Assembly (NCBI RefSeq): GCF_963506605.1
Contig: NC_083281.1
Location: forward strand, 55,676,001-55,740,000
Length of the DNA stretch: 64,000 nt
Origin: Zootoca vivipara
Lineage: Eukaryota
Reading direction: 5' to 3'
Position 1 is the first letter of the stretch, and each line of letters begins with the position of its first letter. A program made the position numbers and the translations under genes. Below, piece after piece: positions 30,201 to 33,200 of the stretch. The notes beneath the pieces are model-generated. The model searched no databases and was not told where the DNA came from. It worked only from the letters and a program-made list of their open reading frames with translations.

Positions 30201-33200
30201 AGTCAATTCCACTTGCTGCCAAGCACCACTTTATAATCACTCTTTAAAGTTATGCAAAGGGGAGTATGTTTTGAGGTTAAGCAAAATGTGGAGGTTCAGT
30301 AAAACTATTTAATTTTTTTAAGCTACTCTTCATCCTTTTGGATACCAGGACAGTAAAATAATCAAACAAAAATACAGAAGCGTTATTAAAAGATTAAAAT
30401 GTCTAAAAGAAATTACACTCATAAACAAAATCAATACAGAAGAAGCAACATATCAGTTGTGAGATTCCAAACAACGTTCACCTCTCAGAGGAGAAGATGA
30501 GTCTTCAATTGACCAGCTAACTGACCAGGAAGGACTAGTTAACGACATACAAAAAACCTGAGATCCTGGTCTATGGTTCCCAAAGAAGCCAATGTGCTTT
30601 TAAAAAGGTCTGAAGTTAGCATACAAATCCTGACTTGTTTGGGAGCAACAAACCAGGATTCCTCCCAGACCAGGTTCCCACATCACAACAGGCTAGCAAT
30701 TCCTGGTTAGTTTTACCCACCTGCACAAAGGGTGGGGGAAGTGAACCAGCTGGATGCACCAGCATGCGGGTCACTCACAGTAAGCCAGGATAAGCCAGGA
30801 ATCCTGGCTTATTGTGAAATGCAAATGCAGCCTTTAACTTGCAAGTTTTCTTTTTAGCATAAAGCAACATTCTCTCCCTGCATAAATTATTAGTCATTAA
30901 TGAGTTTTAATTCAGCATTCAGAGACCATTTGTGTACATCTTGGTTTGAAACTTCAACACTGCACCATTTCAGAAAAAAACTTAACAGAAACTTTAAAAT
31001 GGTATTCCATTAAACATGTTATCACTAATTAGTAGATGAGCCTTGGCAACTCATCCAACAGGCCCCACAAGCAGAAGTGCGGCAGGCATGTGCTGGAATG
31101 CCTTGTGACACTGACACTGCTGCTGCTCTCCTTCCTTAACCCACAGGGGAGGCAAACAGAGCAGGTAACAGTTAAAATCTTGGGCAAGGGTTAAGCACAG
31201 CTCTTGGAGCAACATTTGCATTCCACTGCTGTGGAATGTGTGGATTGGGAGGGAGGGAGGCCTCTCGGGACAAGAATTGTTCACTGGCAGCAGAGATGCA
31301 TGTTATAAACAAGGTGAGTGCCCGAGTCAAAGAAAGGCTGCAGCAATAGGATCCTTAGGCTGCCCTTAATTGCTGCTTTAGGTACAATGAATCCTTCTAT
31401 GGGGGGGGGGGGAAGCACAGAATCAGCAATGCTCTGCCCTCTGCATTTTTCAACAGTTTACTTCGCAGCTTCCATTTCAGCAGAGGAATGAACACCACAA
31501 AAACTGCATGAAATGTGACAATGGGGAGACACAGAAATGGCCGTATATTTTGCTGAAGCTCAGAAGCAGGCATTGAATTTGTTCACAATAGGCATCATTG
31601 GCACATGACTTGCCTCATGAGACAAATATGGAGTGATGTAATCCCCAATACAAAATGTACTTCTTGGTGGGAAGAAAGGGATTATTTTACCCACTGAATT
31701 TGATAGGATCCTCTTGGTTTGAAAAGCTGCACAATACAGCTTTGACAGCCACCTTTTACATTGTCCCACTAGTTTAAAATGAGTGCACAGTTAATGGTGC
31801 AAGTCTGCAAAAGCAACGGGGAATTCTTGTCAAGATTGCATTTCTTTACAAAGGAACAGAGTGTTAGAAAACTTTTGGACAGACAGTGAGAAACCATTTC
31901 TTTCAATCAAACTTGCTATACTATGAATGAACTATATTTTCAGGAACATTACAGCATGGTGAAGACCAGTTCTCAAAGTTCCAGTAATAAGTCCAACCCT
32001 GTGCAGTGGAAGAACATTCGTGCACTGTACCCCTTAACAAGGGTATGTGCAATTAGATACCACTGTCTCCTATCCTGAACTATCATCTATTTAAATGACA
32101 TTTCTATTGTGTACAAATTCTGCACAGGTATTTTCATGAGCACACTTTCCACCTCATTGCATTAATATATAAATACAGATGCAAGTTTTTAACATAGCAA
32201 CCAACTATGCATACCTTGAGGGCTCACACAATGAAGAATACTAAGTAGCAACTGTGGTTCTCCTTACAGTCTTTTTATGTACTTGGGGTATTATAACCTT
32301 GAAATTGATGCTAACAGTGACAGGAAAGCCAATACTGCAGAATGCTTATTGGTTTCGCTGTTGACTATTTTTAAATTATGCCTGTTTCTGGAATTCCTGT
32401 CGAAATTGGAGTTCTTGGTGAAGTCCAGAAATAAACAGTAAATTGCAAACATACTTGGTACACTCTGACCATTAAAACATTGCTGATGAAGAATTAGCGA
32501 AACAGGGCCTTGTCCTGGGATTTTTTCACTGGAATTTATATTTATTTGCCTCATTATCATACTGGAATTGATTCCTATTTGGATTCATCTTATCATTATA
32601 TAAATAAAACTTTTTGAAGACTTACTTGAAATTCATCTTCCTCCTGTCCCGAGTTCTTGCAATTTACTGTTTATTTCTGTTTCTGGAATTCAGCAAAGGA
32701 AACTGCCACTGTGCAGAAATGTTCCATACTTCACTCTGACTGTCCTCAAAACTTACGGGAATCCTGCATGCATTAACTGATGACCCATGATTACTCACAT
32801 GTAAAAACCTCAAGCCATATTCTCTTAACTGCCCTTCTCCCACCTCACAGGGGTCTAACTTTGTTGACCAAGCATGACTGAAGCTGTACAACCTGAATAT
32901 ATTTTAGTAGGGCTTGCACAGATACACCATCAAAGTCTTCTAGATGTGGAGATATTTTAAGAACCAGACAAGTTCTATTATTAGCTATTAACCCCCCCAT
33001 ATGTGTGATATGTGCACATTGCTCTGAATCTAATAGTCATTATTATTTACTAGTTTATTGCTCTTAGGTACTCTCTTAAATTTTGCAATGGATTTTATTA
33101 TTATTGTAAGCTGTTCTGATAGCCAGTTTTGGCTGGAAAATGGAGTAAAAGAATAAACCATCTCCATGCTAACCAACCTTCTTGCCAGAGATTTCTAAAA

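What the first reader, a model, noticed from the sequence alone, without database searches (positions are those of the whole stretch)
32475..32524. Hidden hammerhead ribozyme motif in DYNC1LI2 intron 4 (antisense to the gene)
Seen: CTGATGA-A-G(AATTAG)C-GAAA-CAGGGCCTTG-TC, i.e. complete catalytic boxes, a one-pair stem II, a stem III fully self-complementary with G-U pairs, and a GUC cleavage triplet, with AATAAA at 32603. Established: this matches the minimal type I hammerheads of Penelope-like retroelements, which cleave as dimers through the palindromic stem III. Stem I pairs poorly (aaaacattg/ctgggatttt), so this copy may be dead. It differs from the motif at 42788, implying a second, possibly uncatalogued, Penelope or retrozyme family. 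Being on the plus strand it would not cut DYNC1LI2 pre-mRNA.
Basis: partly seen in the sequence, partly recalled or inferred. Interest (0 to 1): 0.7.

Follow-up and report, generated by a model that had tools for sequence, protein, structure and literature searches.

The report
Splice-disarmed hammerhead in Penelope retroelement
A 280-base end-piece of a jumping gene sits in an intron of a dynein gene and carries a tiny self-cutting RNA motif that lacks one arm because the jumping gene's own intron was spliced out, so this copy is likely inactive and splicing likely acts as the cutter's off-switch.

Summary
The motif is real but not decayed. It lies in a 280-bp insertion (32397-32676, 15-bp target duplication) from a dispersed Neptune-like Penelope retroelement family (94 exact-core copies; RT plus GIY-YIG parent). 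The family has an intron whose 3' splice site ends on the base before CUGAUGA, so the whole 5' strand of stem I is intronic. In the window's subfamily, 11 of 12 intron-containing copies form a 7-bp stem I and 69 of 69 intron-less copies, including this one, form 1 bp. Of 36 resolvable ORF-linked end repeats, 35 keep the intron and none is spliced. Spliced copies begin at a sharp start. Best reading: splicing disarms the ribozyme at the mRNA's 5' end. Cleavage is untested, covariation is absent and no copy starts at the cut site (0 of 100). Penelope hammerheads and this intron are known, but in D. virilis splicing leaves helix I intact. The scan noted passenger Penelope hammerheads before in another genome, not this coupling. 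For DYNC1LI2 it is an antisense passenger.

The parts
32382..32396 (+). left target-site duplication (15 bp)
   Evidence: identical to 32677-32691
32397..32448 (-). inverted 52-nt piece of the element's 3' end, including the ~30-nt 'tail' that the direct part lacks
   Evidence: reverse complement matches the family's 3' end; 4-nt overlap with the direct part
32445..32482 (+). exon 1 of the element's pLTR, starting 3-4 nt behind the family's sharp 5' start
   Evidence: followed by GT..AG intron in L124, L158, L159
32482..32483 (+). exon-exon junction left by precise loss of a 340-341-nt intron; the intron's end is the 5' strand of stem I
32483..32514 (+). minimal type I hammerhead: CUGAUGA, extra A, 1-bp stem II, GAAA, palindromic stem III, GUC; predicted cut behind 32514
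   Evidence: sequence; 94 exact-core copies
32515..32521 (+). 3' strand of stem I, left without its partner in this spliced copy
   Evidence: pairs 7 bp with the intron end in 11 of 12 unspliced copies
32515..32676 (+). rest of the pLTR / 5' UTR up to the first of two preferred 3' end sites; AATAAA at 32603-32608
   Evidence: continues into ORF1 in near-full-length L153
32677..32691 (+). right target-site duplication (15 bp)
33689..33922 (-). host DYNC1LI2 coding exon upstream of the intron that holds the insertion
29835..30008 (-). host DYNC1LI2 coding exon downstream of that intron (profile match, edges approximate)

Best explanation
The motif lies in an intron-less copy of the end repeat of a Penelope-like retroelement, whose own intron supplies one strand of the hammerhead's stem I, so splicing likely switches the ribozyme off and this copy is predicted to be inactive. 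Shown: the insertion's anatomy, the family, the RT/GIY-YIG parent, the GT-AG intron whose acceptor abuts CUGAUGA, and the split between intron-less short copies and intron-keeping ORF-linked copies. Inferred: the element is transcribed from a start in the upstream pLTR; the cap-proximal intron is spliced, which removes stem I and protects the mRNA's 5' end from self-cleavage; reverse transcription primed internally at the tail sites of that 5' pLTR yields ~270-nt spliced copies such as this one; the 3' pLTR keeps its intron and so a foldable ribozyme, which would work as a dimer through the 12-nt palindrome. For DYNC1LI2 the copy is an antisense passenger.
For: Copies. Intron: GT donor after exon 1 and CAG directly before the core in 9 of 9 ORF-linked copies measured, 63-341 nt. 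Stem I: 11 of 12 unspliced 7 bp, 69 of 69 intron-less 1 bp in the window's subfamily. Search anchored on the ORF end, blind to splice state (40 places): 35 keep the intron, 1 has an internal deletion, 4 end before exon 1, 0 spliced. Core-selected copies: 51 of 60 lack the intron. None of 37 intron-less copies with an intact start carries more than 4 templated letters upstream of it; 18 of 31 that start on A have an extra G, as from a copied cap. L153 runs spliced pLTR > tail > ORF1 > RT. 3' ends cluster at two sites ~30 nt apart (38 and 24 of 71) with a target-duplication-like repeat in 51 of 71, as for the anole PLE in PMC11167929. Across 8 subfamily representatives identity is 0.93-1.0 from the last 7 intron bases to +3, but 0.42 and 0.39 in the flanks and 0.64 in loop II. 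The cofold minimum of two unspliced copies holds both 7-bp stems I and the 12-bp stem III; two spliced copies form neither stem I.
Against: No cleavage assay. No covariation above shuffles (455 and 260 of 500 shuffles as good). Only the 3-bp CAG/CUG is shared by all subfamilies; the extension beats shuffles only in the window's subfamily (21 of 500; others 53-500 of 500). The conserved CUG also closes a rival hairpin (-6.1 kcal/mol) present in both forms. Even unspliced, the active fold lies 7.5-14.8 kcal/mol above the monomer minimum and 5.8-10.4 above the dimer minimum. 0 of 100 listed copies begin at the cut site, and every copy examined was made from uncut RNA. In the anole PLE, cleavage was dispensable for insertion in vitro (PMC11167929). 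A more distant family in this genome does not show the same junction (L187, L188). Some extra Gs come from target duplications or inverted pieces.
Confidence: 0.65

Rival explanations
1. The element and intron are as described, but the overlap is not a switch: the block is kept as splice acceptor plus a hairpin or protein-binding site, and catalysis is weak or of no consequence in either form.
For: Rival hairpin conserved in all subfamilies; stem I only 3 contiguous pairs in 35 of 35 copies of two subfamily groups; no covariation; no insertions from cut RNA; ribozyme mutants did not affect insertion of the anole PLE (PMC11167929).
Against: The catalytic boxes, the extra A and G10.1-C11.1 stay fixed while only N7 and loop II vary across subfamilies, the pattern expected for selection on catalysis; helix I of 2-6 bp is normal in the 44 PLE rows seen in the supplement of PMC4209133.
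Confidence: 0.27
2. An old copy whose stem I decayed by mutation after insertion.
For: Stem I forms one pair in the window.
Against: 69 of 69 intron-less copies share the 1-bp state; the copy is 85-97% identical to the other top-scoring copies; the junction is exactly the GT-AG intron's ends.
Confidence: 0.02
3. An independent non-autonomous family (retrozyme or SINE-like) that copies itself as a ~270-nt unit.
For: Most copies are short and share both ends; only 10 matches for the RT's N-terminal part.
Against: No head-to-tail arrays among the 94 places; each subfamily has ORF-linked, intron-keeping counterparts; short copies lack the sequence upstream of the start and the intron that overlaps the promoter in D. 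virilis Penelope (PMC2377424).
Confidence: 0.06

Closest known systems
Penelope of Drosophila virilis: pLTR intron and hammerhead (PMC4209133; PMC2377424)
   Same: Intron about 40-46 nt behind the transcription start in the pLTR; its 3' end lies at the 5' side of helix I; palindromic helix III.
   Different: In D. virilis the 2-bp helix I (CC/GG) is the same with and without the intron (supplement rows). Here the acceptor AG abuts the core, so splicing removes the whole 5' strand. Stem II is 1-2 bp here against 6 bp; stem III palindrome is 12 nt.
PAc, Poseidon PLE of Anolis carolinensis (PMC11167929)
   Same: Hammerhead in the pLTR; two reverse-transcription start sites about 30-40 nt apart giving the tail; insertions made from uncut RNA.
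   Different: There the ORF starts in stem II and the start sites lie inside the ORF; here the tail ends about 12 nt before ORF1. No intron at the ribozyme is described in the parts read. Different clade.
Minimal PLE hammerheads that cleave as dimers (Lunse, Weinberg, Breaker, PMC5785218; not held, known from the review PMC6765202 and recall)
   Same: Type I, palindromic stem III; very short stem II (recalled).
   Different: Splice dependence of stem I is not mentioned in the review passages read; the paper itself could not be checked.
Neptune clade of EN+ PLEs (PMC8557442)
   Same: RT, Cys-rich linker (CxxCxxC), C-terminal GIY-YIG, inverted 5' piece, tail.
   Different: Clade assignment here rests on motifs, not on a tree with named references.

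Membership tests
EN+ Penelope-like element | RT followed by C-terminal GIY-YIG endonuclease | tested here: met
   L130 675-aa frame: RVT_1 E 4.8e-8; IYAW..YIG motif; 63% and 44% identical relatives carry PF01541 over cut-off; P0001 itself gave no PF01541 hit
EN+ Penelope-like element | pLTR with hammerhead at the 3' end of the ORF and again before the ORF | tested here: met
   L124 ORF end > pLTR; L153 pLTR > ORF; no single locus with both pLTRs and a whole ORF was found
EN+ Penelope-like element | 30-40-bp tail and inverted 5' piece | tested here: met
   two 3' end clusters, 38 and 24 of 71; inverted tail piece 32397-32448
EN+ Penelope-like element | spliceosomal intron in the pLTR | tested here: met
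   GT..AG, 63-341 nt, 9 of 9 measured
Neptune clade | Zn-finger-like CX2-5CxxC linker between RT and EN | tested here: met
   CGRCNVC in P0001; definition from PMC8557442; Nematis shares the motif
Neptune clade | phylogenetic placement with named Neptune RTs | not tested
   no named reference among the 120 listed hits
Minimal type I PLE hammerhead | CUGANGA, extra base, G10.1-C11.1, GAAA, NUH | tested here: met
Minimal type I PLE hammerhead | palindromic stem III | tested here: met
   12-bp self-duplex, -18.9 kcal/mol
Minimal type I PLE hammerhead | helix I of at least 2 bp (window copy) | tested here: not met
   1 bp
Minimal type I PLE hammerhead | helix I of at least 2 bp (unspliced family members) | tested here: met
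   3 or more contiguous pairs in 62 of 65
Minimal type I PLE hammerhead | self-cleavage as dimer | not testable with these tools
   folding only
Non-LTR retrozyme | head-to-tail tandem units each with a hammerhead | tested here: not met
   94 places dispersed; close pairs are inverted; no tandem array at the site
Host-exapted intronic ribozyme | sense to the host transcript and single-copy | tested here: not met
   plus strand in a minus-strand gene; multi-copy

The most novel reading that the evidence does not exclude
A retroelement in which the spliceosome sets ribozyme activity: the 3' splice site is itself the 5' strand of hammerhead stem I. In a pLTR-ORF-pLTR RNA with a spliced 5' copy and an unspliced 3' copy, the palindromic dimer forms only one complete site, in which the 3' copy cuts the 5' copy, removing cap and exon 1 while leaving the 3' priming site whole. 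That would give both the Penelope hammerhead and the retained intron a function: a switch from mRNA to transposition template.
Probability: 0.2. Interest if true: 0.75.

Novelty: new variant of a known kind. Interest (0 to 1): 0.5.

Why it matters
The role of Penelope hammerheads and the reason these elements keep introns are both called unclear in PMC8557442. This family ties the two together in one junction and gives paired natural constructs (spliced and unspliced, several subfamilies) for a simple cleavage test. It also shows where intron retention happens: in ORF-linked 3' repeats, not in start-proximal copies. Practically, poor stem I in genomic PLE hammerheads can mean splicing rather than decay, so descriptor searches miss or misjudge such copies. 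For the host gene the copy is most likely irrelevant.

Tried and rejected
Rfam: no hammerhead family hit. Loose core pattern: chance level. Coding role of the ATG in the core: the frame is closed at once in the window's variant and in other subfamilies, rejected. AATAAA as the element's end signal: no poly(A), ends lie 70-100 nt downstream. Cut-RNA insertions: 0 of 100 listed of 117 matches; the one apparent case (L198) is an intact copy with a small insertion. Covariation: none. Search for stem III variants: one search was mis-specified by one base (0 matches, uninformative), so that question stays open. No RNA holder on record was listed. RNA reads: the GT..AG joint appears in 3 of 3 raw runs (4, 2 and 10 reads; about 6% of each run read), but the joined form exists as DNA, so this does not show splicing; no pile-up of read ends at the cut site, which such libraries rarely show. 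No empty-site allele in 3 contig sets; 1 RNA run had no depth on the unique flanks. PDB search with the RT gave nothing significant. A Fisher test used a wrong count and is not used. The distant family L187/L188 could not be folded into the same scheme.

Full report
Observation. The motif is at the stated place: core 32483-32502, 12-nt palindrome, GTC ending at 32514, AATAAA at 32603. The two boxes alone are at chance level in the window (6 against 5.44 expected) and Rfam finds no hammerhead. The gene is on the minus strand; DLIC exons flank the site and the upstream exon matches light intermediate chain 2. 'Intron 4' is recalled numbering.

A repeat family. A 381-base query found 681 candidates in G000, of which 40 were scored; the top hits are 85-97% identical over about 235 bases. 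An exact core pattern gives 94 places, control 0. The window copy is bounded by a 15-bp duplication (32382-32396, 32677-32691) and begins with an inverted 52-nt piece of the family's 3' end. Among 81 copies of the window's subfamily, 10 had no tail anchor and were dropped; of 71, 38 end at one site and 24 about 30 nt further (8 of these at the end of my reference), and 51 have a target-duplication-like repeat, 35 of them 15-18 nt. This matches the tail and inverted pieces described for PLEs (PMC8557442, passages; PMC11167929, parts 1-2 of 4).

The parent. L130 holds a 675-aa frame with RT (RVT_1, E 4.8e-8), a CxxCxxC linker and a GIY-YIG-type end. Its closest named relatives are unnamed-function proteins of Podarcis and Anolis, two relatives carry Pfam GIY-YIG over the cut-off, and the genome therefore looks squamate. 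The linker motif points to the Neptune clade; no tree was built. L124 has the window's loop variant and reads ORF end, spacer, exon 1, intron, hammerhead, tail. L153 reads spliced pLTR, tail, ORF1 start about 12 nt later, then RT.

Why stem I is poor. Of 60 core-selected copies fetched (of 94), 9 have TTCCAG directly before CTGATGA and 51 have exon-1 letters there. The 9 carry an intron; in 9 of 9 ORF-linked copies measured it runs GT..AG, 63-341 nt, and its removal gives exactly the window's junction. Over 152 distinct contexts: in the window's subfamily 69 of 69 intron-less copies have 1 pair and 11 of 12 intron-keeping copies have 7 (one has 6). Other subfamilies have 3-5 contiguous pairs unspliced and 0-3 spliced.

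Where the intron stays. A search with the ORF end and spacer, which stops short of exon 1 and is blind to splice state, scored 40 of 48 candidates. Of the 40 places, 35 keep the intron, 1 has an internal deletion, 4 end before exon 1, and none is spliced. Conversely, none of 37 intron-less copies with an intact start has more than 4 templated letters upstream; 18 of the 31 that start on A carry an extra G (6 dropped; binomial p 7e-6 against 0.21; inflated because some Gs come from target duplications or inverted pieces). I read this as a capped start about 41 nt before the donor, close to the 46 nt of D. virilis Penelope (PMC2377424, passages).

Selection on the ribozyme. Across 8 subfamily representatives identity is 0.96 for the last 7 intron bases, 0.93-0.96 for core and stem III, 1.0 for +1..+3, against 0.64 in loop II and 0.42 and 0.39 in the flanks. 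Seven of the 8 came from the ORF-anchored search, but I picked them with a core motif, so the figure leans high. Within the core only N7 varies. Against this, pair counts do not beat shuffles, the stem I extension beats shuffles in one of seven groups, and a rival hairpin also uses the conserved CUG.

Folding. As a monomer the active fold is 22.8 kcal/mol above the minimum in the window copy, 7.5 and 10.4 in two unspliced relatives. For dimers the minimum of two L066 fragments contains both 7-bp stems I and the 12-bp stem III; two spliced fragments form neither; a mixed pair forms one, at the spliced strand's cut site. These models omit core contacts and show scaffolds only.

Mechanism. Shown: anatomy, intron position, and the spliced/unspliced split. 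Inferred: transcription from the upstream pLTR, splicing of the cap-proximal intron, loss of stem I, internal priming at the tail giving short spliced copies, and retention of a foldable ribozyme in the 3' pLTR. Not shown: any cleavage. No listed copy begins at the cut site (0 of 100 of 117). RNA reads cannot separate splicing from read-through of spliced DNA copies.

Known and new. PLE hammerheads, their palindromic stem III and the pLTR intron are published (PMC4209133: parts 1-2 of 4, supplement 2 part 2 of 3, supplement 1 not searchable; PMC6765202 and PMC6466107: passages; bioRxiv 10.64898/2026.07.22.740005: part 1 of 5 and passages, supplements closed). PMC4209133 notes that the D. virilis intron end maps to helix I, but its alignment shows the same 2-bp helix with and without intron. 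None of the 44 rows seen there has this motif; one (Latimeria 3) has UAG directly before the core. Searches found no paper on splicing removing stem I; PMC5785218 was not held and repeat libraries were not available, so novelty is not proven. The scan's notes held no finding with all search words and no look-alike sequence.

Verdict. A real, probably inactive Penelope hammerhead in an antisense passenger insertion; ordinary as a locus, but it exposes a splice-coupled ribozyme design that is cheap to test. New variant of a known kind; interest 0.5.

Noticed in passing
window 42788-42830 (+): Second hammerhead of another PLE family (long stem II, no stem III loop, GTAT/ATAC stem I in 7 of 11 copies seen); the window copy lacks the 5' stem I strand. 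Family name not tested.
   Followed up: partly
L151, L152, L153, L155 (RT N-terminal region): ORF1 and the RT frame overlap in a -1 relation in 4 of 4 copies: possibly a programmed frameshift, a second intron or a separate start.
   Followed up: no
L187 about 5140-5800 (+), L188: A more distant PLE family (40-48% aa identity) has a GT donor and an acceptor-like AG about 14 nt before a degenerate hammerhead-like core.
   Followed up: partly
G000:C18 5.25-6.62 Mb and C19:39.54 Mb: Ten inverted pairs of unspliced copies 186 bp apart (nine on C18, one on C19), probably within a larger duplicated unit; five copies also cluster at C2:4.86-5.09 Mb.
   Followed up: no
L124 5742-6081: The element's intron seems to contain about three degenerate ~110-nt repeats; intron length ranges from 63 to 341 nt between subfamilies.
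   Followed up: no
window 12928-13620: GC-rich tandem array, 152-bp unit, 4.6 copies, each with a long hairpin that gives spurious miRNA-family hits.
   Followed up: no
window 16683-17491: Nested GC-rich tandem arrays with units of 104-345 bp.
   Followed up: no
window 2933, 25028, 34106, 46820, 63034: Five 82-84-nt palindromic stretches with sub-threshold mir-5408 hits, probably one short inverted-repeat transposon family; not checked.
   Followed up: no
L124 5657-5742 (run X11): About 200 RNA reads come from another locus where spacer and exon 1 are flanked by unrelated sequence: a truncated copy inside a host transcript.
   Followed up: no
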